This document shows positions 14,110-63,444 of a DNA stretch of 64,000 nucleotides, one piece after another. Source of the stretch: Pachysolen tannophilus NRRL Y-2460 (taxonomy: Eukaryota); contig KV454011.1 of NCBI GenBank assembly GCA_001661245.1, positions 2,406,987 to 2,470,986 on the forward strand. The letters run 5' to 3'. Positions within the stretch are counted from its first letter, which is position 1. Every line of letters starts with the position of its first letter. The notes below the pieces were generated by a model. That model was given only the letters and a program-made list of their open reading frames with translations, ran no database searches and was not told the DNA's origin. Made by a program: the position numbers and the translations under genes.

Positions 14110-14931
14110 TTAATTTTGAATACCAGAGCATTCATTTGTACTTATATGATCTCTAATCCATTCATCTACATTTGAATAAATTTTACCACACAGTTTACAA
14201 TTTCCACTAACATGGTTTCTATTTTTTTTTTAGTTCCCAAGGGGTATTCGAAATGCAATGCTTTTAAATGATTTTTATAAGTATCACATCTTGAGAAACA
14301 ACCACTTGAATGACATATTTTAATATTTTGCTTTTCATCTGAAGTTGTTTCTTCATTTTTGTAAAAAGGACATTTAAATCCATATTCGCTTAAATCTTTT
14401 AAATGTGATTTTTCATGTCTTGTTAAATCATTTGGTCTTGCAAAACCTCTTGAACAAGTTTTACAAACATGAGGTCTTGCATTAACTGAAAGATGTGTTG
14501 ATTTATGTGTTGCCAAGTTACTAAAATATAATAAACATTGTGGACATTGTTTCTTCTTGCGTCTATTTTTCTGGATTTTACTCTGTTTTGACGGAAGATG
14601 CAGGAAGTGGTTCTGTTGTACAATAACTTGTTGGTACTGCTGTTGGTGCAAAGGTTTCTGATCTTGTGGTTCTAAATGTGACCTAAACCCACTTGCCAAT
14701 ACTAAAACAGCATTTGCATTTGCATTCGCATTCGCATTCGCATTTGCGTTTGTATTAGCATTTACATTCACATTAACATTAGCATTAGACTTTTCATATG
14801 TGATTGGATCACTACTACTTCTTGACCTACTTCCTTCATTATTATTATTATTATGATTATTATCTGAAGAAACTTCGTCTGCAGATGTGGGTGAATGTAG
14901 ATAATAGCTTTTACTGTTATTAGTCAATATA

Positions 14932-14963
<32 letters not shown>

Positions 14964-15506
14964 TTGTAGTTGTTGATATTGCTGATATTGTGATTGTGGT
15001 TGTGGTTGTGGTGGTTGCTGTGGTTGTTGTTGTTGTAAAGATCTAACTTTTGGGGATTGCGAGTATCCAAAACGAAATTCCTGAGCCCTTTTTTGATTAT
15101 CATAATATGGAACTATTGGTGGTGGTAAAGCACTGGATATTCCTTGAGTCCTCGAAGGATAATAATAATTTGACGATCCTGAAGGTACCGAAGCTGGTGG
15201 AGGTAACCTATATTTTTCATTCAACCCAGAACCTGGATGTTTATCAAGAACTTTCAACTTTGGTGGAGGCGCAAGATTTATAGAATTTGTAAAACTATTA
15301 AAAGTTGGTAAACGAAACTTATTATCAGCACTTGAACTAGTTGTTGGTTGAGGTAATAGAGCTATTGCTGGTGGTGATACTTGTGTTCCTCCCAGGGCCA
15401 GGGAAATGGGTATGGCTGAATTAGTACCATTATTCGTATTAACGTTGACACAACCACTCCCTTGAGTGCTGGAAGTATCTCTTTTCTGTTCAATCATAAT
15501 CATCAT
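14110..15506 (-). CDS. STP3: Stp3/Stp4-like C2H2 zinc-finger transcription factor (apparent 1-nt frameshift near the 3' end)
   Basis: CPQC..FSNLATHKSTH, RPHVCKTCSRGFARPNDLTRHEKSH, FSRCDTYKNHLKALHFEYP.GTKKK. The conserved tail continues in another frame to the stop at 14110. Position next to ELO3-ROM2-ARC18 matches S. cerevisiae STP3. Confidence 0.82.
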
Positions 15507-33600: not shown

Positions 33601-33880
33601 ATGCGCTGTACATTCCATTGGTGTAAAAACCCTTATTTCTTTGTGGGGCTTTAACTTAAAATGGAATTTTAATCACAATTTTCAGTTATCAGGTAATAAA
33701 TAAACCGAATAGAGGTATTTATTCCGTTTAAGATTAAGCTTATCTTTTAACTATGTTGCCTAAAAATATAGAAGATCAAAACTTAAATACTTTAAATGGC
33801 TGCACGCGATAAACACTACAAGATGCTACGAGATACTTCTTCAATTATTATCTTTTGAAGATTTTTTAACAGGAAACTAT

Positions 33881-34801
33881 ATGAACACCAACAACGAAGA
33901 CTTGTGCCAGTTCACAAGTGTCTTTGAAGAAGAGAATCATGAATCTCAAGAGAATCATGGATCTCAAGAGCATCACGAGTCTTGTAGATGTACTGAGTGT
34001 CTTGACAATAGTGATTTACTTCTAGATTTGGAAAGTAATTTCAATACTTTGCCAGATTCATCTTCTCCCAACACTCCTTTGACACCTCCAAGTTCAGAGG
34101 AAGATTCCTTAACAAATGAAGATTGGAAAACACTCAACGAGTTTATTCTGCAAGAGTTCCCAGAAGAAGCTAATTCTCAGGGTAAGGTTACCCCTGCTCA
34201 GACTGAAAACAGACTGGCAGATATGGAGAACGAAGCTGATTCTGAAAACTTCGATAAGTTACTAGAAGAATTAGAATTACACTTTGAGCAATCATCATCA
34301 GCTTCTGAAGATACTACACAAAATGGACTTTACGGGTTAGAGTACTATAGAAGACGTAATCATTTCAGGCTTAGTGACATGCCACGAGGTGAAGTTTATC
34401 AATACGAGATTTCTCCTAAAGCAAATAAATCACGCTACGAGCCTCAAATCTTGAGAAGAAAAGGCGCAAAGAGATCATCTACCGAAGGTTTATGTCCATA
34501 CTGCGAACATATTAATTTTTTGAAGTTAAGCTCTTCAGCTTACTTGCATCATTTAGGAATGAACCACGGCATTTTCTCCAATGGAGAAAAAGTCAAGGAA
34601 CCAACATTTGAAGAAAGACAAGAACTTAGCAGTTGTGGGAAAATTAAAACAATAGCAGGTTTCAGGTGCCCATACGAAAACTGTAAAATCGGCCACATCA
34701 AGGTCCCACAATTCAAACCTATACCTAGCAAAAACAGATACAAGAACTACCTTAGACATTGTAAGTTCTGCCACAATCGAGGCAAAAAATTGAAACATTG
34801 A
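33881..34801 (+). CDS. Acidic zinc-finger protein with a DUF4451/Rua1-C-like domain, copy 1 (lacks the 16-aa N-terminus of copy 2)
   Basis: YEPQILRRKG....EGLCPYC....FLKL..SAY.HH....HGI resembles the DUF4451 (Rua1/Meu26) pattern as I recall it. Second Cys/His cluster CPYENC...RHCKFCH; acidic N-terminal half. Confidence 0.65.
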   Translation: MNTNNEDLCQFTSVFEEENHESQENHGSQEHHESCRCTECLDNSDLLLDLESNFNTLPDSSSPNTPLTPPSSEEDSLTNEDWKTLNEFILQEFPEEANSQGKVTPAQTENRLADMENEADSENFDKLLEELELHFEQSSSASEDTTQNGLYGLEYYRRRNHFRLSDMPRGEVYQYEISPKANKSRYEPQILRRKGAKRSSTEGLCPYCEHINFLKLSSSAYLHHLGMNHGIFSNGEKVKEPTFEERQELSSCGKIKTIAGFRCPYENCKIGHIKVPQFKPIPSKNRYKNYLRHCKFCHNRGKKLKH

Positions 34802-34891
34802 TAAAATATGTATAAAACTATTGATTTTTTACCCTGAATTTTTTTACACTACAGTAGTTTTTGCTGTCTCCGTATTATAGATATATTGAAT

Positions 34892-35098
34892 AGATAATAT
34901 CTATTGGATTCATTTTAGAAAGAAAAGTTCTTGATTTTTTAAAAAAAAGATTCTGAGGACTAACCTCTTCTTTTATATCATTCATTCCCACTCTTTAGAT
35001 TGGAGGAAACTGCTACAAATCTTTTGAAAAAATGCAATTATAATATCTTAATACAAAGATCTAGGAAACTATAGATCTATCCAGATGTACGTCCTGCA
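34892..35098 (-). repeat. Left arm of a ~200-bp inverted repeat; inverted copy of the promoter and first codons of DUF4451 copy 2
   Basis: Reverse complement aligns to 41799-42015, including an identical run of ~50 bp (AGATCTATAGTTTCCTAGATCTTTGTATTAAGATATTATAATTGCATTTTT) and ATG AAT CCA ATA GAT versus ATG GAT CCA ATG GAT. Confidence 0.93.
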
Positions 35099-35309
35099 TA
35101 TTATGCATAATGTGTACTTCAAGATTTCATACAAATGATTACTCGCAGATAACCACCTATTTATCATCTTGGAAAGATTCAGGGGCACAAAAGTTGAAGG
35201 AAGACTGTTTATAGTTAAATTTGAAAGATTGTATGATTGAATAACGGGAAAGTTTAGTAAAAAAAAAAAAAAATGGGGAAAAAAAAGAGTACTTAGTTCT
35301 ATTTAGTGG

Positions 35310-36578
35310 TTATACCGGTTCAGATGCTTTTCCTAGATTCGAAGTTTCTTCTTCTTCTTCTTCTTCTATTTTGAAAGTCGTCATTGGAATTTTAAAGTTG
35401 TCACTGCTATTGGCATCATCAATATGAAATACAGTGTTTCTATCTGTATCCATTTCATGGGAAAGTTCATCATCGTCCAAGAGAGTTTCAGTTTGATCTT
35501 GCTGTTCTTCTTTTTGCTTTAACAAAACTGCAGATATCGCCGAACTTATAATTATAACAAATCCAATCCAGCTCAAAAGAGGTGGAACATGGTGCCATAT
35601 GGTTAGTTCCCAGACTAGTGCATATATCATTTGTGTATAACTCACCAAAGACAGACGACCTGCTTTTTCTCTTTGAATACCAGCAGTCATGAATACTTGG
35701 TTGATAAATCCAGACAGTCCCAAGAGAAAGAAAAAAATCCAATGTTTTATGGTTTTTGGTAGTTGAATGGTTTCACTTTGTTTAAAAATTACAATCAAAC
35801 AAGACACAATACAAGAGACACCAGAATAATACTGAACTGAAAGCAAAGGATGAGCTCTATTACCAATTGAACGAATCAATATTGTGACAAAACTACCCCC
35901 TAAAATTCCGAAAAATAATACGGAAGTGGCAAGTAGTCTGACTTTTGGATCTTTGGTTTCTACATCTTCATCTGTCTGATTATTTACAAGGTACCAACTA
36001 AAGAGAAATGAAGGTCTTGCAATTAAGAGAACGCCAATCATTGAAAAAAGGCCACTGAGAGCTTCCCAGATTGAATATCTCTCTTTTAATAAAACATAGG
36101 CCAAAGCCAATGTTATACAAGGGCTGATAAATTCAATAACTATAGAATCACTAAGACTGATATAATGTAATGCATAATAAGATCCAAATAACCACAAGAA
36201 CCCACTTGATCCCCTTAACAACAATAAATGCCGAACTTCTTTTGCACCAAATGGGAAATGCGGAATTTCCATGTAATACATATAGACGGCAGAGCAAACA
36301 ACAGTAAAAGACATCCTAACAAAAATTAGTTCAGAGGAACTTAAAGGTGTATTAAAGTTCTTATCATTTTCCAATAGTTTGACAAATACAAACATAAGTG
36401 AATTGAAAAACTGACTTATAAACAAGAAGCATAATCCAATATTGTGCTTGAAATATTTCAAATAAATTTCCGAATTATAATATCTTTCCTTCAACCTTGC
36501 CAAAAATGAAGATGATGAATCCCCGTATAAAGCGGGCACATTGCTTTGAGTATAAGATGATGATGTTTGACTTATCAT
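35310..36578 (-). CDS. EamA/DMT-superfamily transporter (YMR253C/YPL264C-like), paralog 1
   Basis: SQFFNSLM, RG..GF, LIARPSFLF, IRSIGNRAHPLLSV.Y, AGIQREKAGR, YTQMIYALVWE; about 10 TM segments. Confidence 0.88.
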   Translation of the reverse strand: MISQTSSSYTQSNVPALYGDSSSSFLARLKERYYNSEIYLKYFKHNIGLCFLFISQFFNSLMFVFVKLLENDKNFNTPLSSSELIFVRMSFTVVCSAVYMYYMEIPHFPFGAKEVRHLLLLRGSSGFLWLFGSYYALHYISLSDSIVIEFISPCITLALAYVLLKERYSIWEALSGLFSMIGVLLIARPSFLFSWYLVNNQTDEDVETKDPKVRLLATSVLFFGILGGSFVTILIRSIGNRAHPLLSVQYYSGVSCIVSCLIVIFKQSETIQLPKTIKHWIFFFLLGLSGFINQVFMTAGIQREKAGRLSLVSYTQMIYALVWELTIWHHVPPLLSWIGFVIIISSAISAVLLKQKEEQQDQTETLLDDDELSHEMDTDRNTVFHIDDANSSDNFKIPMTTFKIEEEEEEETSNLGKASEPV

Positions 36579-36730
36579 TTTCTCGTTTTATTTCTATTTC
36601 TATCACACACACTCACTTTTAATTTTCCACTTCTTTTTTTCAACCTTTTACTTTTACAGTTGAACAAGTAATACTCTATAGCTCTATATAATTCATGATA
36701 AACCTATCCTTGTTTTGTAGTTAATACTTT

Positions 36731-36739
36731 ATGACTCAT
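36731..36739. promoter_or_regulatory. Perfect Gcn4/AP-1-type site ATGACTCAT upstream of EamA paralog 1
   Basis: Exact 9-mer consensus ~155 bp upstream of the ATG at 36578. Confidence 0.5.
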
Positions 36740-37167
36740 ATAACTAGTTAAATGTAGTTAGTTAGCCACAGAAGAGATGCGATAAGATTTTTCAGTTAGC
36801 CGATTTACGCCCTATATTTAGCGAAATCGCTATCAAATAGATAAGTTCAAATTAATACTATAAATAAATGAGTAAACATTGCCCATCACTTCTATCTCTA
36901 ACTATATACCATATAGTACAAACTTCTAAGAAAATGGAAAACAAAACTAATTCGAAATGAAAGTAAAGGTTATAATGAAAAGGAAACAAACTAAAACAAA
37001 AAAAAAGGAAGAACCTATGCAATGAAAACCCGCATTAAATATTAGTAAATCAAAGATGTAGATAAATATATATAAAAATTTCTGATATTTCCCATTCCCC
37101 CTAGGAATACACCCCAAAAGATCTTAGATCTATTTTTTTTTTCCTAGTCGGATATTGTTTTTGAATG

Positions 37168-38538
37168 TTATTTGGTAATGATAGACAGTTCAGAACTAGA
37201 GTTAGAGCTCTTAATACTGCTTTCCTTTGGCACGGCACCGGCATTAAGATGTAATTTTTTGTTGACTAGAGATTCATTTGAATTTAAAATATTGGCAGAG
37301 TGGTTTAGTTTGCCAATGTTTTCCAACTCAACTGAATTTTGTTCTGCACCTCTACTTTCCATATCATCTTCAGATACGAACCTTTCTCTACGAACAATAC
37401 CATTTGGTTCAATTGGTGGCTCATGTTTTGGTTTAAAGTAACATATGCATGCTGCGGATCCAATAATGATGAAAAAACCTATCCAACTCAATATAGGTGG
37501 AAAATGATACCAAACTGTGATTTCCCAGAATAATGCATATATCATCTGTGTATAAGTCATTAATGCAGTTCTACCAGCTTTTTCTCTTTGTACACCTGCG
37601 GTTAAACAAAATTGCATAACAAATCCACTAACACCAATAAGGATAAAATAATACCATTGTCTTGGAGTATGTGGAATTTGAAAAGTTAATGAAGGGGTAA
37701 CCATTATTGCAATAAATGATACTAAACAACAATACAGAGAGAAATATGATACGGAAAGGAGTGCATGTGCTCTTTTACCAATATAACGTATTACAATCAT
37801 AACAAAACCAGAACCCACGGCACCTAGCACAGCAACAAATGTGGCCAATATTCTCTTTGAAGGATCTGCAGTTTCAACGTTAGTATCAGTTTCGCTACTT
37901 GTTTCATTTCCAAAGATAAATGTAGGCCTTGCTATTAAAACAACACCCAATAAAGAAAATATACCTCCAACACCTTCAATCCAAGTAAATGTTTCGTGCA
38001 AGATTAAGTACGCAGCCAACCCAGTTATTGAAGGACCCAAAAACATCAACACTGTAGCATCACTAACACTTAAATATTGTAAAGAAAAATACATTCCAAA
38101 TACCCCAAAAAACCCGGTAACTCCTCTCATGATTAGCCATTTTCTCAAACCTTTAGGACCTAATGGGAAATCAGGAGTCTTTGCAAAATACATATATATA
38201 AAACACATGATATAAGTTATCGACATCCTAGCAAATAAAATTTGAAAAGGATTCATCGGCACTTCGAAATCAGGATCTGTTTCCAACAATTTGCATGACA
38301 TATTCATCAAGGAATTGAAAAACTGAGCAACGCAAACCAACGATAACCCAATATTTGGCAGTACAAACCTATCATAATAAGAGGTTAATATTGTCTTCAT
38401 CTTATACAACTGTGAACTCCCCAATATCGTTTCGTCATTATCACTGTCATCATAAATGGACAACTCAAAGGAGTCATTATCATCGTTATCTTTTAATAAA
38501 CCTCTACCTACGCTCAGGTTCCGATCTCTATCTGTCAT
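37168..38538 (-). CDS. EamA/DMT-superfamily transporter (YMR253C/YPL264C-like), paralog 2
   Basis: ATG 38538. AQFFNSLM, RGVTGFFGVFGMYFSLQYLSVSDATV, LIARPTFIFG, IRYIGKRAH, GVQREKAGR, YTQMIYALFWE. Confidence 0.9.
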   Translation of the reverse strand: MTDRDRNLSVGRGLLKDNDDNDSFELSIYDDSDNDETILGSSQLYKMKTILTSYYDRFVLPNIGLSLVCVAQFFNSLMNMSCKLLETDPDFEVPMNPFQILFARMSITYIMCFIYMYFAKTPDFPLGPKGLRKWLIMRGVTGFFGVFGMYFSLQYLSVSDATVLMFLGPSITGLAAYLILHETFTWIEGVGGIFSLLGVVLIARPTFIFGNETSSETDTNVETADPSKRILATFVAVLGAVGSGFVMIVIRYIGKRAHALLSVSYFSLYCCLVSFIAIMVTPSLTFQIPHTPRQWYYFILIGVSGFVMQFCLTAGVQREKAGRTALMTYTQMIYALFWEITVWYHFPPILSWIGFFIIIGSAACICYFKPKHEPPIEPNGIVRRERFVSEDDMESRGAEQNSVELENIGKLNHSANILNSNESLVNKKLHLNAGAVPKESSIKSSNSSSELSIITK

Positions 38539-39365
38539 TTTCCTGCAATATTTGTTCACCTAAAGACTAGCTTTCTCTTAACTTCAAACCTCACCGGAAC
38601 TAGCCCAACAACAGTTAGAAACAAATATCGAAATTAAACAGCCAAAAAAGATAAATCTAGAAAAGGCAAGAAAAATAATATATATATATATTTTATATGC
38701 TTAAAACATATTTGATCAAAAGTGTGGCCTACTTTGCCAGAGGTAGTCATGGGCCGCTATGGAAAAGGCTGCAGGAAAATGCGCTCAAAAAAACACTTAG
38801 TGCGCTCGCTTATTGCGCACACTTCAGACTTAACTGCGGATGGGACACATTAGATATTGAATCTGCGTAGCAGTTGAAGAGACTTCTTCATTGATGATGG
38901 ATGATTTATAATGCCAGTGTCGAGTTATCAATAGCAATTGTAGTTTCAGGGGTTAGAAATAGAGACAATCGGTTTCAATTTTTTTAATTTTTTTTTTTTT
39001 TTTTTTTTTAAGGTTCAATTTATAATTTTAGTTTTAATCATGATGAACCTTTAAAAAATACAAGTAATGTGATTATTATATTACTATTTCCTGAATAAAA
39101 ATTTAGACAAAAATGTCAAATTTTTCATTTGCATACTCAGGATAGTTTCCATTTTTTAAAACCATTTGATTTAAGTGTTTACAACATTAATAGCTTTTAC
39201 TAGTTGCTTATCTTTTAGAAAAGAAAAATTCAGCTTCTACACGAGTGATACCAAAACTTGCAGGTTCCTGCAGATACTGTTTATACAACAACAAAAAAAA
39301 TTAAATTCAACACGATTGATAGATTGATAAATATATATATATATATATATATAAACTCTCGCTAC

Positions 39366-41180
39366 TTAGATATATCCATTTCCACTCCCTCTTAACCTAT
39401 TAATAATAAACTCATTTTCATATAACTCTTTAAACTTCATTAGTAAATCAAATATGCAATCAATTTCTATCTTGATATCATCAGCTCCCAATAAATAATC
39501 GTTGATCAATTTACTGAAAGATTCACCATTTGTAATAATGATTTGGTTTTGTTCCAAACTACAATTTAAATTTAAAATATGTTCATCCTCAAACAAGGTA
39601 TCTTCACATTTCAACCATTTATGAACATCAATATAACCAAATTTTTTCAACTTGTAAGATAAATTCCCCAAACCTTTTAATTTTTCAACATCAATGTTAA
39701 ATTCAGTAATATTTGTCACAAATGAAGGAATATTAATGTTAAAAATCAAATCACCGCTAACTGTTGGTTTGTCAAACCCATTATCTACCGAAAAGGATAA
39801 ATTTTCTAATGTGGTATTTTTCAAAAATTGGTAAGACAATGTCAGTTCTTGATCATTAATTATTTGTTTAAGAAACAAAGAAGTTAAACTCTTCAAATCA
39901 AACTCTAAATTCAATGATGCAAAAATGTTTTCATATAACCAAGTTGGTAATTCTTTTTCGTTTTCTGAAGAGCTTCTGAGATCCAACATGATTGATTCAT
40001 CTTTGTCATAAACAAGTTTCCGTATTATATTTGATAATGGTGAAAATTCATCTTCACTATCACATGATTCAAAGAAAACACTAGGTAAATTATTCAATAA
40101 CGATTCCAAATTTATTGGTTCCTTACTGTTCAAAAATTTTGATAAATTTGAAGTTTTCAAAGTTGCTAGTTTGATTTCTGGAATTTCTAAAACTTCATCA
40201 ATTTTTTTAGTACATGGACTGCGTAAATACAAATCCCAGTACAATATATCTGGAATCGATATATGATTCCTATATTTAGATAACAAATCATCGCCATCAG
40301 TTTCTTTATTCCTTTTGGAATCTAAAAAAGTTTTAACACTGACAATATTGTCTTCTTTCGAAATTTCAAAATTATTAAAATTAAAATCTTTTGCATTTAC
40401 AAAACCAATAAAATCATACAATTTAAAATTTCTAGTAAAATCTATTCTTATCTTCCCCATAGGTATATTTAATAATCCAAATTTAATTTTCAAAGCAATA
40501 TCACCATAAAGTTTTAAAATCTCATCCGGGTTTTTAATCATTTTCTTTACAATTTTAAAAATATTCTCTTGATTGGGTTTCACATTAACAAATAATTGCA
40601 AGCTATTTCTAGAATTTTGATGAATTTTAACATCAAATGGATCTATTCTAATTTGACCTAATTCCAAATATTCATTAATGGATTCATCAAATATTCTTAA
40701 ATTAATATCGTCCAAATTCAATTTTAAAGTTTGAATCACATAACTAGACGATATCAATAATTTTCTATCCCAATCACTCAAATTTTCAGCATTATTATAA
40801 TCTATACTGTTGTCTAAATAAACTATCAAGTTAATAGAGCCTTTATCTTGATCATCAATACCTTTATATTCGATATTTGTTATGTTTACCTCATTTGACT
40901 CCTGAATGGTATTACCTAAATTTGAATAAATTTTCAACCCCGTTATAATGAAAAAACCTACAATAGATGATAGCAATAATATAGAAATTAAAGCTAGCAC
41001 CATCTTCAAATTATACCTTCCAAATCTATAAGGTCTATGATGACGATGTGTCCCTGGTTCCATTATCAAATTTTCATCATCTTGGTTCATTAGATTATCA
41101 TCCTCGATTGGTACCGGCGGTAAATTCGTCAACAACGGAGTTGACTCACTCGTATCCTGCTTTATAGGATGCGACGACAT
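39366..41180 (-). CDS. Single-pass type II membrane protein, probably Tag1 (YLR173W)-like vacuolar protein
   Basis: ATG 41180. N-terminal acidic dileucine signal ESTPLL, one TM helix near aa 60-85, large putative luminal domain. Family call is tentative. Confidence 0.5.
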   Translation of the reverse strand: MSSHPIKQDTSESTPLLTNLPPVPIEDDNLMNQDDENLIMEPGTHRHHRPYRFGRYNLKMVLALISILLLSSIVGFFIITGLKIYSNLGNTIQESNEVNITNIEYKGIDDQDKGSINLIVYLDNSIDYNNAENLSDWDRKLLISSSYVIQTLKLNLDDINLRIFDESINEYLELGQIRIDPFDVKIHQNSRNSLQLFVNVKPNQENIFKIVKKMIKNPDEILKLYGDIALKIKFGLLNIPMGKIRIDFTRNFKLYDFIGFVNAKDFNFNNFEISKEDNIVSVKTFLDSKRNKETDGDDLLSKYRNHISIPDILYWDLYLRSPCTKKIDEVLEIPEIKLATLKTSNLSKFLNSKEPINLESLLNNLPSVFFESCDSEDEFSPLSNIIRKLVYDKDESIMLDLRSSSENEKELPTWLYENIFASLNLEFDLKSLTSLFLKQIINDQELTLSYQFLKNTTLENLSFSVDNGFDKPTVSGDLIFNINIPSFVTNITEFNIDVEKLKGLGNLSYKLKKFGYIDVHKWLKCEDTLFEDEHILNLNCSLEQNQIIITNGESFSKLINDYLLGADDIKIEIDCIFDLLMKFKELYENEFIINRLRGSGNGYI

Positions 41181-41798
41181 CTTAATCACTTATATCACAA
41201 TTATTACAGATTTTACGACTGAATACAACTAAACCGTCTTTTGATGGATTGTAATAAATACAGGAGAAAGTCAGTCAGTCAGTCATGCACAGAAAAAAGA
41301 AAATATAATGTCTTTTTGTAGAAAACACAAAGTAGTGTAGTTCAAACCCAATTTTACGAAAGAGGAAATTTTTGTGTTTCTGCAAAGAAACCATTTTTAA
41401 GGAACAATAAGAAGACAGGACTATACATGAGATGTTTCTGAATCTCTAGAAGAATCTTGGGTATTATAGGGTTCAGATAGAAACCTTTGCTTTTTGTTTA
41501 AAAGAGACGTAGGTTAGTTGCAATCTAGGAATTTTTTTTTTTCTTTTTGGTAGGGCTTCAGTTAACAAGATTGTAAGTAGTAGAGAGAAGGTGTGTGTAA
41601 TCTTACAAGTCAGAGTGCCAAAGACGCATGTTTACAGAAATGAGATATTAAGTCAACCCCAAGGAAGAACGAACAAGTGGGAAAGAAGAAACATCTTTAA
41701 AGAAAAGAAGGTAACTACTAACATATTGAAAGTTAAAAAAAAAAANAAAAAAAAAACTACCCAAATCTCGCTGTGTTTAGGATCCATTATGTAGGTGG

Positions 41799-42015
41799 TG
41801 CAGGTTGTAGATCGAGACAGATCTATAGTTTCCTAGATCTTTGTATTAAGATATTATAATTGCATTTTTTTTAAAAGATTTGTAGCAGTTTCCTTCAATT
41901 TAAAGAGTACCAAATAGTGGGAATGAATGATATAAAAGAAAAGGTTAGTCCTCTCGTTTTTTTTTTAAAAAAATCAAGAACTTTTCTTTCTAAAATGGAT
42001 CCAATGGATTTATCT
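41799..42015 (+). repeat. Right arm of the ~200-bp inverted repeat (promoter and start of DUF4451 copy 2)
   Basis: Aligns to the reverse complement of 34892-35098 with scattered substitutions and a 10-nt insertion near 41908-41917. Contains TATAAAA at 41931-41937. Confidence 0.93.
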
Positions 42016-42945
42016 TTTGAAGATTTTATAGCGGGAAACTATATGAACACCAACAACGAAGACTTGTGCCAGTTCACAAGTGTCTTTGATGAAGAGAATC
42101 ATGGATCTCAAGAGCATCACGAGTCTTGTAGATGTACTGAGTGTCTTGACAATAGTGATTTACTTCTAGATTTGGAAAGTAATTTCAATACTTTGCCAGA
42201 TTCATCTTCTCCCAACACTCCTTTGACACCTCCAAGTTCAGAGGAAGATTCCTTAACAAATGAAGATTGGAAAACACTCAACGAGTTTATTCTGCAAGAG
42301 TTCCCAGAAGAAGCTAATTCTCAGGGTAAGGTTACCCCTGCTCAGACTGAAAACAGACTGGCAGATATGGAGAACGAAGCTGATTCTGAAAACTTCGATA
42401 AGTTACTAGAAGAATTAGAATTACACTTTGAGCAATCATCATCAGCTTCTGAAGATACTACACAAAATGGACTTTACGGGTTAGAGTACTATAGAAGACG
42501 TAATCATTTCAGGCTTAGTGACATGCCACGAGGTGAAGTTTATCAATACGAGATTTCTCCTAAAGCAAATAAATCACGCTACGAGCCTCAAATCTTGAGA
42601 AGAAAAGGCGCAAAGAGATCATCTACCGAAGGTTTATGTCCATACTGCGAACATATTAATTTTTTGAAGTTAAGCTCTTCAGCTTACTTGCATCATTTAG
42701 GAATGAACCACGGCATTTTCTCCAATGGAGAAAAAGTCAAGGAACCAACATTTGAAGAAAGACAAGAACTTAGCAGTTGTGGGAAAATTAAAACAATAGC
42801 AGGTTTCAGGTGCCCATACGAAAACTGTAAAATCGGCCACATCAAGGTCCCACAATTCAAACCTATACCTAGCAAAAACAGATACAAGAACTACCTTAGA
42901 CATTGCAAGTTTTGCCATAATCAAGGTAAGAAATTTAAACATTAA
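41995..42945 (+). CDS. Acidic zinc-finger protein with a DUF4451/Rua1-C-like domain, copy 2 (316 aa)
   Basis: ATG 41995 in AAAATGG context (MDPMDLSFEDF...). Near-identical direct repeat of 33881-34801. Confidence 0.7.
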   Translation: MDPMDLSFEDFIAGNYMNTNNEDLCQFTSVFDEENHGSQEHHESCRCTECLDNSDLLLDLESNFNTLPDSSSPNTPLTPPSSEEDSLTNEDWKTLNEFILQEFPEEANSQGKVTPAQTENRLADMENEADSENFDKLLEELELHFEQSSSASEDTTQNGLYGLEYYRRRNHFRLSDMPRGEVYQYEISPKANKSRYEPQILRRKGAKRSSTEGLCPYCEHINFLKLSSSAYLHHLGMNHGIFSNGEKVKEPTFEERQELSSCGKIKTIAGFRCPYENCKIGHIKVPQFKPIPSKNRYKNYLRHCKFCHNQGKKFKH

Positions 42946-43073
42946 CAAATTATTATGGGGTTTTTTTTGGTTTTTTGTTAGTTTTTTAGTTTTTTTAGTT
43001 TTTAGTTTTCTTAGTTATATAGATAGATCTTACTGATAACAATATTAATATAATTTGAATTATACCACTGATA

Positions 43074-60568: not shown

Positions 60569-61471
60569 CTAATTACTAAAATCATCTTCTGTAGGTGGAA
60601 CATAAGGAGGAGGTTTGAAAAATTCTTGATCTTGTAAGACCAATTTTTTGAAACTATCTTTATCATCAACAAATTCGTACAAATACTCCAACTCTAAATC
60701 ATGAACCTGTCTCCCTAACATTATCAAACTATGCAAAGGCTCACCAGCATCATAATTACTTAATTCTTTTAAGGAGCCAGCTTTAAAAGACTGGGTTGGA
60801 GCTCCCAATCTTGATATAGCAACACAAGGCGTAGCTTCTGTATATGCTTGTTCCTTTCTCAAGCTTTCAATTTCTAATAACTGACTTGCTGCAGTGCTTA
60901 TATCCATATATCTTGGAGGTTCATAAATAAGTCTACCTCTTGCCATATTTTCAATACTTTGTTCCTTAACCTTGATATCCAATAAGATTAATGTATGTAA
61001 TCCAATTTTCCTATTTTCCATTATCTTATCGTAAAAACTATCTGGTCTCCAACTATCAGTAAAGAAAACCATTGAAACCGTCTGACCAAATTGATATAAT
61101 TGTAAACCACAAGCACCTACAGCATTCATAATACTAGCATTATGTATACATTCCACTTTTATTCCTAATTCTCTTGCTCTTATAATCAAATCCGTATGAG
61201 TAGTGGCACCAAAAGGATCACCAACAACCAAAAATGCAATATCCTCTGTATCTGCATCTTTTAACATCTCATCTGAACCGGTTTCCACAAGTTCTCGATC
61301 AGCTAGAATAACTTCTTTTCCATAAAAACTCTCCAAAGATTCTTTCGATGCCGCCATAAGAATCGACGTATAGGCCTCCAAATAAACCCTTTTACATTTT
61401 TTCACAGCCTGAAGACCCCTAACAGTTATATCAGTTTCATGAGATAATCCTAATCCAATTAAATACAACAT
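60569..61471 (-). CDS. DPH5: Diphthine methyl ester synthase
   Basis: ATG 61471. [58 protein letters not shown]. Confidence 0.97.
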
Positions 61472-61585
61472 GGTGATGACACTTATTACTCCCACCTGGT
61501 TGATTGTTCTTTCAATAAAGAGTCAAAATATAAATTACCTGAAAAAAAAAAAAAATAAAAAAATTTTTTTTAAAAAATTTTTTTT

Positions 61586-61701
61586 NNNNNNNNNNNNNNN
61601 NNNNNNNNNNNNNNNNNNNNNNNNNNNNNNNNNNNNNNNNNNNNNNNNNNNNNNNNNNNNNNNNNNNNNNNNNNNNNNNNNNNNNNNNNNNNNNNNNNNN
61701 N
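61586..61701. other. Assembly gap (116 N)
   Basis: Run of N. Confidence 0.99.
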
Positions 61702-62387
61702 TTCTCAAGCTTTCAATTTCTAATAACTGACTTGCTGCAGTGCTTATATCCATATATCTTGGAGGTTCATAAATAAGTCTACCTCTTGCCATATTTTCAA
61801 TACTTTGTTCCTTAACCTTGATATCCAATAAGATTAATGTATGTAATCCAATTTTCCTATTTTCCATTATCTTATCGTAAAAACTATCTGGTCTCCAACT
61901 ATCAGTAAAGAAAACCATTGAAACCGTCTGACCAAATTGATATAATTGTAAACCACAAGCACCTACAGCATTCATAATACTAGCATTATGTATACATTCC
62001 ACTTTTATTCCTAATTCTCTTGCTCTTATAATCAAATCCGTATGAGTAGTGGCACCAAAAGGATCACCAACAACCAAAAATGCAATATCCTCTGTATCTG
62101 CATCTTTTAACATCTCATCTGAACCGGTTTCCACAAGTTCTCGATCAGCTAGAATAACTTCTTTTCCATAAAAACTCTCCAAAGATTCTTTCGATGCCGC
62201 CATAAGAATCGACGTATAGGCCTCCAAATAAACCCTTTTACATTTTTTCACAGCCTGAAGACCCCTAACAGTTATATCAGTTTCATGAGATAATCCTAAT
62301 CCAATTAAATACAACATGGTGATGACACTTATTACTCCCACCTGGTTGATTGTTCTTTCAATAAAGAGTCAAAATATAAATTACCTG
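61702..62387 (-). repeat. Identical duplicate of the DPH5 5' part and upstream sequence (matches 60856-61541); probably an unmerged contig overlap
   Basis: Constant 846-bp offset, no differences seen by eye, abuts the N gap. Confidence 0.9.
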
Positions 62388-63444
62388 AAAAAAAAAAAAA
62401 AAATAAAAAAAAAAATTTTTTTTTTTTTTTTAAGTTTTCCGCTCTTTTCAACCGAAGTCGAAATCAACATTTTAAAAAGTAATTCATCTTTAAGATTCGG
62501 ATTCAAATGAGTGTTTTCAGTTGAACTATATGTGAATCAAAGTAACAGTAGTTATTGAATAAATACTCTTGAAACATTTCCTTAATTTCGAACAAGAATC
62601 ATTTTTAGTTGAATAATGGTTGATTTTTCTTATAATTATGTCTCTGCAGATGCTGTACTAAATGTTTTTTCAGCTTTTGTTGCTGACAAACTTTTCTTTA
62701 AATATTAAGCATTTGGTCTCGAATTTTATAACAACTCATTCAGTTATACAAAGCTATCTGAATAGTCTCTTACTAACAATCCATTGATTTTAGTTCCGTT
62801 TCTTCTGTTTGAATCGAGAATTTCATCATGTAAAAATGATAAATGTACTTTTTATCATAAAAATCCGCAGAAAATGCGGCTGTGATCTAATTAGCTTGTT
62901 CTCTGGTCTAGACTATTTTCTTTTGATAGATGGAGTTTGCAAGAATTAAAGCTTAGATGATATTATGATTATGAGTTGGAAAAGTTTAGCTTAAAAGTGG
63001 AAAGATAAAAACAGATAAAAAATGACAGAGCTAAAAAATGAATGAGGCAACTTTTATGATGTAAAAACTCAGAACAAGAAATTTAGCTTTAATTTGTAGG
63101 ATGAAACAAGAAACAGACGTTCAGATACAAACCAAATTTGAATTAATAGTTTGAAAGTAATTTCTATTTTTTCAATTGGACTGTTCTAGATCTACTAGAG
63201 CAACTAAGACCAATGATTCAACTCCATTTACTTACCTATAGATATGTATAGAAAGAAAGCAAAGAAAAGAAAGAAAAATAAAAAATAAAAAAGTAAAAGG
63301 ACACATAAAAGAAAACAATTTAACGATGAATAGTTTTTTTTTTTTTTTTTTTATTTTAAATAAAGTTAATTGTCATAATCTCAGAAACTTATTTTGAGTC
63401 TGATATTTTCTGAATCCGTAAAATTTGAATTTTTAAGATAGTAT

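What the first reader, a model, noticed from the sequence alone, without database searches (positions are those of the whole stretch)
33846..42945. Nested direct and inverted repeat architecture around two DUF4451-like zinc-finger genes: candidate invertible or excisable three-gene cassette
Seen: copy 1 (33881-34801) and copy 2 (41995-42945) are same-strand repeats ~8.15 kb apart. Just inside them, 34892-35098 and 41799-42015 form a ~200-bp inverted repeat that is the promoter, TATA and start region of copy 2. The ~6.7 kb between the arms carries two EamA transporters and a Tag1-like gene. Established: Ogataea, Komagataella and Pachysolen use recombination between inverted repeats to flip a chromosomal segment at MAT. 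Inference: recombination between these arms would invert the block and swap the distal upstream sequence feeding copy 2, while recombination between the direct repeats would excise or amplify an ~8.1-kb unit. No MAT genes or recombinase are visible here, so a programmed switch is only a hypothesis; a fixed historical rearrangement is equally possible.
Basis: partly seen in the sequence, partly recalled or inferred. Interest (0 to 1): 0.8.

Follow-up and report, generated by a model that had tools for sequence, protein, structure and literature searches.

The report
Duplicated yeast regulator genes, scrambled repeat
Two nearly identical copies of a zinc-finger regulator gene bracket three membrane-protein genes in the yeast Pachysolen tannophilus, and the repeats look like the scar of an old rearrangement kept alike by gene conversion, not a working genetic switch.

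Summary
A 966-nt direct repeat (33848-34813 / 42010-42956, 96.7%) and a 234-column inverted repeat (34876-35098 / 41799-42030, 85%) bracket two EamA genes and a Tag1-like gene. The organism is Pachysolen tannophilus NRRL Y-2460.

The repeated genes are Rua1_C zinc-finger paralogs. Their middle 814 bp is identical, and all differences lie in the first 100 and last 52 nt. This points to recent gene conversion between older, selected paralogs.

The left inverted arm is a dead copy of copy 2's promoter and first codons. It lies between two gene 3' ends and points into the tail of copy 1.

The arms are short and diverged, with a longest perfect run of 52 bp. The known flip/flop loci use about 2-kb repeats, identical in O. 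polymorpha. In the window, 27 of 29 ORFs of 120 aa or more were scanned, and none is a MAT gene, recombinase or transposase.

I read this as a fixed historical rearrangement with concerted evolution. A programmed switch is unlikely.

Rare inversion or pop-out is therefore not excluded.

The parts
33848..34813 (+). Direct repeat, left copy (block A1)
   Evidence: blastn 96.7% over 966 columns to 42010-42956; alignment
33881..34801 (+). Rua1_C zinc-finger gene, copy 1 (306 aa). It lacks the N-terminal stretch of about 40 residues that the long copy-2 ORF has, and carries one extra 18-nt (6-codon) repeat unit
   Evidence: ORF; Pfam PF14616 1.3e-17; all 20 invariant family columns kept; 18-nt indel at 33928-33945
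33948..34761 (+). 814-bp core, identical to 42092-42905: the gene-conversion tract
   Evidence: Longest identical run. 0 of 200000 random placements of the 16 difference events leave such a run, and P(no synonymous difference) is 4e-8 to 2e-13
34814..34875 (.). 62-nt spacer with no detectable match to the downstream region of copy 2
   Evidence: Local alignment no better than shuffles (329 of 500 shuffles reach the score)
34876..35098 (-). Left inverted arm: relic copy of copy 2's promoter, ATG and first codons. A 36-codon minus-strand ORF runs from 34985 down to 34875. It lies between the stop of copy 1 (34801) and the stop of EamA-1 (35310) and points into copy 1's 3' end
   Evidence: blastn 85% over 234 columns to 42030-41799; alignments; reading frames
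35057..35078 (-). 22-nt partly palindromic block inside the 52-bp perfectly conserved stretch of the arms (second copy 41819-41840 +)
   Evidence: Only these 2 matches in the window at up to 3 mismatches, 0 expected from shuffles; longest identical run 52
35310..36578 (-). EamA-family membrane transporter gene 1 (422 aa)
   Evidence: Pfam PF00892 1.7e-22; 46% identical to its neighbour over 341 residues
37168..38538 (-). EamA-family membrane transporter gene 2 (456 aa), an old tandem paralog of gene 1
   Evidence: Pfam PF00892 7.3e-28
39366..41180 (-). Tag1-like gene (604 aa)
   Evidence: Pfam Tag1_C 1.2e-13 and Tag1_N 1.9e-10
41799..42030 (+). Right inverted arm: live upstream region and 5' end of copy 2, in the divergent intergenic region shared with the Tag1-like gene
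42010..42956 (+). Direct repeat, right copy (block A2). It overlaps the right arm by 21 nt (42010-42030)
41995..42945 (+). Rua1_C zinc-finger gene, copy 2 (316 aa from ATG 41995, as in public model P0077). The frame is open from ATG 41923 (340 aa)

Best explanation
This is a fixed product of past duplication and rearrangement in a gene-dense chromosome arm of Pachysolen tannophilus. It is not an active switch. A 1.16-kb unit (promoter block B plus gene body A, intact at 41799-42956) is present a second time on the left, but split at the B/A joint. There, A stands in the same orientation as on the right (33848-34813), and B stands inverted just downstream of it (34876-35098).

Inferred origin, about even odds. 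The unit was first duplicated in inverted orientation across the 6.7-kb block of two EamA genes and a Tag1-like gene. A local inversion of about 1 kb then flipped the left gene body away from its promoter. The left copy thereby lost about 40 N-terminal codons and came under the intergenic region it shares with the amino-acid permease gene. Its old promoter and first codons were stranded as a decaying relic between two gene ends.

Shown. Both gene copies stayed intact and under purifying selection. Their central 814 bp has recently been made identical by gene conversion, that is, concerted evolution between direct repeats 8.1 kb apart.

Inferred. Like any 0.8-kb perfect direct repeat, the pair can occasionally recombine to delete or amplify the 8.1-kb unit. 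The diverged 234-column arms should recombine only very rarely. Nothing points to regulation of either event.
For: (1) Repeat geometry and significance.
(2) All 13 mismatches and 3 indel events of the direct repeat lie in its first 100 or last 52 nt, and the middle 814 bp is identical. 0 of 200000 random placements give such a run. With 154 synonymous sites, and the 11-19% divergence seen in the arms and the tail, the chance of no synonymous difference is 4e-8 to 2e-13.
(3) The unconverted last 13 codons differ at 5 synonymous sites and 2 non-synonymous sites, and the stop codon differs (TGA/TAA), over 6.0 synonymous sites. This indicates old paralogs under purifying selection. Both keep all 20 invariant columns of an 11-sequence family alignment, including the Cys/His pairs C205, C208, H224, H229 and C263, C268, H293, H298.
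(4) Read on the minus strand, the left arm holds the same ATG and N-terminal codons as copy 2, but runs into a stop after 36 codons. It lies in a convergent 3'-3' intergenic space of 508 nt, so it serves no intact gene.
(5) Both left-hand blocks end at the same point of the intact unit (42010-42030), as expected if one inversion breakpoint split an intact copy.
(6) The arms have 22 mismatches and 13 gap columns in 234, with a longest perfect run of 52 bp. In yeast even 2% divergence lowered break-induced ectopic recombination about 5-fold (PMC6511840, passages).
(7) Context: Pfam on 27 of the 29 ORFs of 120 aa or more shows housekeeping genes and no MAT gene, recombinase, transposase or reverse transcriptase. 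3 of the 27 had no family, 1 tRNA-Ser lies at 2035, and there is no other Rfam hit.
(8) The stretch is held almost whole (0.96-0.97 of 943 sampled words) by 5 runs from 2 studies.
Against: The same species is reported to invert its MAT region on nitrogen depletion (PMC6692504, passages), so it has some way to provoke recombination between inverted repeats.

The in-place inversion model predicts homology between 34814-34875 and the region downstream of copy 2, and none is detectable. All 5 local-alignment tests beyond the repeat blocks score no better than shuffles. The origin step therefore stays inferred, and two separate copying events or one template-switching event fit equally well.

The arms contain one 52-bp perfect block, mildly more than expected (my rough estimate p about 0.04, not a tool result). 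This could mean constraint on the relic.

The identical 814-bp core is also exactly the length of a separate 814-bp contig in the public assembly. The way the assembler threaded the two copies through this repeat therefore rests on pairing information I could not inspect.
Confidence: 0.72

Rival explanations
1. Programmed or inducible inversion. The 234-column arms act like the MAT flip/flop repeats. Recombination between them flips the 6.9-kb block and changes what lies upstream of copy 2 and of the Tag1-like gene.
For: An inverted repeat brackets a gene block of about the size of the reported 8-kb MAT cassette of the same species, which inverts on nitrogen depletion (PMC6692504, passages). 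The right arm sits in a promoter region. The arms share a 52-bp perfect block with a palindromic 22-mer found nowhere else in the window.
Against: The arms are 85% identical with indels of up to 10 nt, whereas the known systems use about 2-kb repeats, stated to be identical in O. polymorpha (PMC5720833, passages). Switching there needs homologous recombination, which divergence suppresses. Ongoing exchange would homogenise the arms, yet the direct repeats next to them are homogenised and the arms are not. There are no MAT genes and no recombinase. The left arm lies in a 3'-3' gap, so a flip would place no new promoter next to a gene that lacks one.
Confidence: 0.04
2. Functional excision or amplification. 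The 0.8-kb identical direct repeats are used to pop out an 8.1-kb circle or to build tandem arrays. This would vary the dose of the two EamA transporters, the Tag1-like gene and the regulator under selection.
For: 814 bp of perfect identity in direct orientation 8144 bp apart is a competent substrate. Evidence of recent exchange is strong. Repeat-flanked transporter genes that amplify or circularise under nutrient limitation are known in S. cerevisiae (recalled: HXT6/7, GAP1 circle; not checked here). The assembly graph through an 814-bp repeat node would equally fit one chromosomal copy plus a circle or array.
Against: There is no evidence of any copy-number form other than the assembled one. 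5 runs from 2 studies hold the assembled words, but that does not address junctions. Gene conversion alone explains the identical core. No replication origin is known on the unit. Passive, rare pop-out is expected of any such repeat and is not a function.
Confidence: 0.08
3. Assembly artefact. The two copies, or their perfect identity, are produced by threading one 814-bp repeat node twice through a short-read scaffold. The true locus has another copy number, order, or small differences between the copies.
For: A partial model of the same protein sits on a separate contig of exactly 814 bp, the length of the identical core. The same scaffold shows an un-merged 710-bp overlap around a 116-N gap at 60856-62411, and a single N at 41746, 53 nt from the right arm.
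Against: Both copies have their own diverged 5' and 3' flanks joined without gaps to unique DNA on both sides. At least two entries to and two exits from the core therefore exist in the reads. The arms differ by 15% and so are assembled from distinct reads. A second study's run holds 0.96 of the sampled words.
Confidence: 0.08
4. The relic arm is still a working promoter. Under the same signals as copy 2 it drives antisense transcription into copy 1, so the two paralogs are expressed reciprocally.
For: The relic keeps the proximal promoter region, the 52-bp perfect block, the ATG and an open 36-codon frame, and it points into copy 1's 3' end 74 nt away. The public gene model for copy 1 places an exon in this arm, which might reflect transcript coverage there.
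Against: No RNA holder was listed and none was laid, so there is no transcript evidence. The 52-bp block is only marginally unexpected. The public model's intron has a weak donor and deletes the second conserved Cys/His motif, so it looks like a mis-prediction and not like evidence.
Confidence: 0.08

Closest known systems
Flip/flop (FF1) mating-type cassettes of Ogataea polymorpha, Pachysolen tannophilus and Ascoidea rubescens
   Same: An inverted repeat brackets a block of several kb. The species is one in which such an inversion is reported to be induced by nitrogen depletion (PMC6692504 passages; PMC5720833 passages).
   Different: The known loci have about 2-kb repeats (identical in O. polymorpha) and MATa/MATalpha genes at the ends. 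Here the arms span 234 columns at 85% identity, one arm is a dead fragment in a 3'-3' gap, no MAT genes are present, and most of the duplicated unit is now in direct, not inverted, orientation.
Concerted evolution of dispersed or nearby paralogs by gene conversion in yeasts (general phenomenon; examples recalled, not checked here)
   Same: An identical tract is bounded sharply by diverged flanks. Synonymous differences are absent inside it and frequent outside. Both copies are intact.
   Different: Nothing essential. The particular feature is the stranded, inverted promoter fragment showing that the left copy was rearranged.
Repeat-flanked amplifiable or excisable nutrient-transporter loci of S. 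cerevisiae (HXT6/HXT7, GAP1 circle; recalled, not checked here)
   Same: Direct repeats of about 1 kb flank membrane-transporter genes, and the substrate is competent for pop-out and tandem amplification.
   Different: Here the repeats are themselves intact regulator genes. No circle, array or copy-number variant has been seen, and it could not be tested.
Ustilago maydis Rua1, the zinc-finger regulator that sits in and activates the cellobiose-lipid (ustilagic acid) gene cluster
   Same: The same Pfam C-terminal domain (PF14616). The regulator gene lies next to transporter-type genes. Only the Cys/His domain is conserved among relatives, as reported for Rua1 homologs (PMC7673458 passages).
   Different: The proteins are much shorter (306-340 aa) with an unrelated acidic N-terminal half. 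The neighbours are not biosynthetic enzymes. No evidence here that the paralogs regulate the enclosed genes.

Membership tests
Flip/flop invertible mating-type cassette (FF1) | Long inverted repeat (about 2 kb; identical copies in O. polymorpha) flanking the invertible region | tested here: not met
   Arms span 234 columns at 85% identity, with 22 mismatches and 13 gap columns and a longest perfect run of 52 bp. Compare PMC5720833 and PMC6692504 passages.
Flip/flop invertible mating-type cassette (FF1) | MATa and MATalpha genes at the two ends of the region | tested here: not met
   The genes at and between the arms are Rua1_C, EamA x2 and Tag1-like. None of the 27 scanned ORFs (of 29 ORFs of 120 aa or more) hit an alpha-box, HMG or homeodomain family. 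ORFs under 90 aa and spliced genes were not examined.
Flip/flop invertible mating-type cassette (FF1) | Both orientations present in a population or inducible | not testable with these tools
All listed runs are kept as contigs.
Flip/flop invertible mating-type cassette (FF1) | A silencing site (centromere or telomere) beside one arm | tested here: inconclusive
   Both sides are dense in housekeeping genes for about 30 kb and about 20 kb, with no telomere. A centromere could not be recognised with these tools. For P. tannophilus MAT itself the silencing basis is reported as unclear.
Site-specific-recombinase inverton or excision cassette (e.g. FLP/FRT type) | A recombinase gene with short defined target sites in the arms | tested here: not met
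   No recombinase, integrase or transposase family among the 27 of 29 ORFs scanned in the 64-kb window. A recombinase encoded elsewhere in the genome could not be searched for, because no genome is held.
LTR retrotransposon (direct repeats flanking about 7 kb) | Non-coding LTRs flanking gag/pol (reverse transcriptase, integrase) | tested here: not met
   The 'LTR-like' repeats are protein-coding Rua1_C genes. The interior holds EamA, EamA and Tag1-like genes on the opposite strand.
Paralog pair under concerted evolution (gene conversion) | Identity tract sharply bounded by diverged flanks, far beyond chance | tested here: met
   An 814-bp identical run. All 16 difference events lie outside it, and 0 of 200000 permutations reproduce it.
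Paralog pair under concerted evolution (gene conversion) | Synonymous differences absent in the tract but common in unconverted coding flank | tested here: met
   0 differences over 154 synonymous sites in the core, against 5 over 6.0 synonymous sites in the last 13 codons. The flank is very short.
Rua1_C (PF14616) fungal zinc-finger regulators | C-terminal domain match above Pfam's gathering score, with the conserved Cys/His residues | tested here: met
   64.6 and 64.3 bits against a cut-off of 27. All 20 invariant columns are kept in both copies. All 76 relatives at E of 0.001 or less match only the C-terminal part, from residue 157 onward, apart from the window's own copy-1 model P0001, which matches residues 41-297.
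Rua1_C (PF14616) fungal zinc-finger regulators | Sequence-specific DNA binding and activation of neighbouring genes | not tested
   No expression or binding data were available. This is an inference from U. maydis Rua1 only.

The most novel reading that the evidence does not exclude
The locus is a second, non-MAT recombination cassette in a flip/flop yeast. It began as a 1.16-kb inverted repeat around a 6.7-kb transporter block. It still undergoes condition-dependent recombination, driven by whatever provokes the MAT inversion under nitrogen depletion. That recombination would be inversion through the residual arms, or pop-out and amplification of the 8.1-kb unit through the identical 814-bp direct repeats.
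Probability: 0.05. Interest if true: 0.7.

Novelty: new member of a known kind. Interest (0 to 1): 0.22.

Why it matters
As read here it is an ordinary, if neat, example of yeast gene-family evolution: duplication, a small rearrangement that gave one copy a new promoter and N-terminus, and gene conversion that keeps the copies alike.

It has practical value for annotation:
- The public model of copy 1 appears mis-spliced.
- A redundant 814-bp contig carries a partial third 'gene'.
- The relic promoter should not be called a gene start.

It would matter more only if reads showed both orientations or extra copy-number forms. Pachysolen would then have a non-MAT locus subject to induced recombination. 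That would help to find what initiates flip/flop switching, a question reported as open (PMC5720833).

Tried and rejected
(1) Read test. The look-up of sequencing runs listed 7 runs.

(2) Whole genome. None is held, so other copies of the repeats, MAT and recombinases elsewhere could not be searched.

(3) Homology beyond the repeat blocks, to test the in-place inversion model. None of 5 local alignments scored above shuffles: 329, 133, 492, 346 and 391 of 500 shuffles reached the observed score.

(4) LTR retrotransposon or mobile-element reading. Rejected on gene content.

(5) RNA genes. Only one tRNA-Ser at 2035-2118, far from the locus.

(6) Word-based protein search found only the species' own protein (1 hit among 685 candidates). 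The full HMMER search gave 76 relatives, which apart from the window's own copy-1 model P0001 (residues 41-297) share only the C-terminal domain. No genomic context for them could be fetched.

(7) Earlier notes of this scan. Nothing on this genome or sequence. The word search returned only unrelated bacterial elements.

(8) Riley et al. 2016, the primary description of P. tannophilus MAT, is not held. I rely on its summary in PMC6692504.

(9) Literature. No paper holds 'DUF4451' or the two locus tags. The 4 papers that hold Pachysolen tannophilus, 'inverted repeat' and 'mating-type' include two on mating-type switching (the passages I read, deal with MAT) and two general genome-evolution reviews that I did not open.
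Full report
**What is there**

The window is 30% G+C and eukaryotic. The only database protein close to the repeated gene is PACTADRAFT_1074 of Pachysolen tannophilus NRRL Y-2460, on a 2.5-Mb contig. I therefore read the DNA with NCBI table 26 (CUG = Ala), which reproduces the public protein.

- A direct repeat, 33848-34813 vs 42010-42956: 96.7% over 966 columns.
- An inverted repeat, 34876-35098 vs 42030-41799: 85.0% over 234 columns, E about 2e-60.
- Neither block occurs elsewhere in the 64 kb.

Gene content by Pfam:
- Both repeat copies encode Rua1_C (PF14616) zinc-finger proteins.
- The 6.7 kb between the arms carries two EamA transporter genes and a Tag1-like gene, all on the minus strand.
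- The two EamA proteins are 46% identical, so they are an old tandem pair.

**Anatomy of the direct repeat**

All differences sit at the ends.
- The first 100 nt hold 4 mismatches and an in-frame 18-nt indel.
- The last 52 nt hold 10 mismatches and one 1-nt gap.
- The 814 bp in between (33948-34761 = 42092-42905) is identical.

Random placement of the 16 difference events never left such a run (0 of 200000). At the 11-19% divergence seen in the arms and the tail, the chance of no change at the core's 154 synonymous sites is 4e-8 to 2e-13.

The last 13 codons differ at 5 synonymous and 2 non-synonymous positions, and use different stop codons. Both proteins keep every one of the 20 invariant columns of an 11-sequence family alignment, including two Cys-Cys...His-His motifs.

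So these are old paralogs, both maintained by selection, whose middle has recently been homogenised by gene conversion. Relatives elsewhere (76 at E of 0.001 or less) share only the C-terminal domain, apart from the window's own copy-1 model P0001, which matches residues 41-297. A third, longer Rua1_C gene lies on another scaffold of the same species.

**Anatomy of the inverted repeat**

The right arm is the upstream region and 5' end of copy 2, in the 742-nt divergent gap it shares with the Tag1-like gene. The left arm is its reverse complement.

Read on the minus strand, the left arm has the same ATG and N-terminal codons as the long copy-2 ORF, then drifts into a stop after 36 codons (34985 down to 34875). 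It lies in the 508-nt gap between the stop of copy 1 and the stop of EamA-1, so it serves no intact gene. It is a relic pointing into the tail of copy 1.

The arms differ by 22 mismatches and 13 gap columns, including a 10-nt indel. The longest perfect run is 52 bp. That run contains a partly palindromic 22-mer found only in the two arms.

**How the pieces relate**

The intact unit (promoter block B plus gene body A) is 41799-42956. On the left, A and B are both present but split at the same point of the unit (42010-42030). A is in direct orientation and B is inverted, lying on the far side of A.

The simplest single step from an intact copy is an in-place inversion of the gene body of a copy that originally lay in inverted orientation. 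Under that reading the ancestral locus was a 1.16-kb inverted repeat around the three-gene block. A later flip of about 1 kb turned most of it into a direct repeat. That flip removed about 40 N-terminal codons from copy 1 and put it under the 614-nt region it shares with the amino-acid permease gene.

This step is inferred. The predicted homology of the 62-nt spacer and of the outer flanks to copy 2's surroundings is not detectable (5 tests, none above shuffles). Two separate copying events, or one template-switching event, remain possible.

**Is it a switch?**

The flip/flop systems in print have these features:
- About 2-kb inverted repeats. Two identical copies in O. polymorpha, and 2-kb repeats around an 8-kb MAT region in P. 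tannophilus.
- MAT genes at the ends.
- Dependence on homologous recombination, with no recombinase found (PMC5720833 and PMC6692504, passages only).

Here the arms are a tenth of that length and 15% diverged. Even 2% divergence cut break-induced ectopic recombination about 5-fold in S. cerevisiae (PMC6511840, passages). Stronger suppression at higher divergence is recalled, not checked.

Regular crossing-over would keep the arms alike. Instead the neighbouring direct repeats are homogenised while the arms have decayed.

None of the 27 scanned ORFs (of 29 ORFs of 120 aa or more) is a MAT gene, recombinase, transposase or reverse transcriptase. The left-out two are a gap-duplicated ORF at 61535-62317 and one nested in a longer open-ended frame. 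3 of the 27 had no family. The surroundings are housekeeping genes such as Mre11, myosin, Sec5, Cdc37 and TAF10.

I therefore rate a programmed inversion as unlikely (about 0.04). The 814-bp perfect direct repeats can certainly mediate occasional deletion or amplification of the 8.1-kb unit, as any such repeat does. I see no sign that this is used.

**What could not be done**

The decisive test is orientation and copy number in reads, and it failed. Five runs from two studies hold 0.96-0.97 of the sampled words, all as contigs. No genome is held, and relatives' genomic context cannot be fetched. The primary paper on P. tannophilus MAT is not held.

**Assembly caveats**

The protein cluster of the gene includes a 'partial' model on a separate contig of exactly 814 bp, the length of the identical core. 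This looks like the repeat node left over in the public assembly. It supports exact identity of the shared core, but it means the threading of the two copies rests on pairing data I could not see.

The diverged, gap-free flanks on both sides of both copies argue that two copies are real. Elsewhere the scaffold has an un-merged 710-bp overlap around a 116-N gap.

**Verdict**

No paper in the held library names the locus tags or DUF4451. The locus is a new example of a known kind of event and is of low to moderate interest.

Noticed in passing
window 33948-34761 (and a separate public contig, not in the window): The 90% cluster of the copy-1 protein holds a 'partial' 229-aa model (PACTADRAFT_5461) on a contig of 814 bp, exactly the length of the identical core of the direct repeat. 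It is probably the repeat node left as a redundant mini-scaffold in the public assembly.
   Followed up: partly
window 34666-34998: The public model of copy 1 (PACTADRAFT_1074, 286 aa) splices out 333 nt with a weak GT donor and ends in an exon inside the left inverted arm. This deletes the second conserved Cys/His motif (C263, C268, H293, H298). It is probably a mis-prediction, and the unspliced 306-aa ORF keeps the whole domain.
   Followed up: partly
window 60856-61563 and 61702-62411, gap 61586-61701: A 99.7% identical 710-nt direct duplication flanks a 116-N gap. It looks like un-merged contig ends and duplicates part of a TP_methylase (diphthine-synthase-like) ORF.
   Followed up: no
window 41746: A single N inside a long A run, 53 nt left of the right inverted arm. 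It is an ambiguous base or a minimal gap in a homopolymer.
   Followed up: no
window 33928-33945: Copy 1 has one more unit than copy 2 of an 18-nt in-frame tandem repeat encoding a Glu/His-rich hexapeptide. This is a small length polymorphism between the paralogs, just outside the converted core.
   Followed up: no
window 35057-35078 (-) and 41819-41840 (+): A 22-nt partly palindromic sequence lies within the only 52-bp perfectly conserved block of the otherwise 85% identical arms. It is a candidate regulator-binding site in copy 2's promoter, found nowhere else in the window.
   Followed up: partly
window 14166-15506 (-): A 446-aa ORF rich in Gln/Asn runs, whose C-terminal part has Cys/His spacing that looks like a C2H2 zinc finger, gave no Pfam hit at E of 1e-4 or less.
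   Followed up: no
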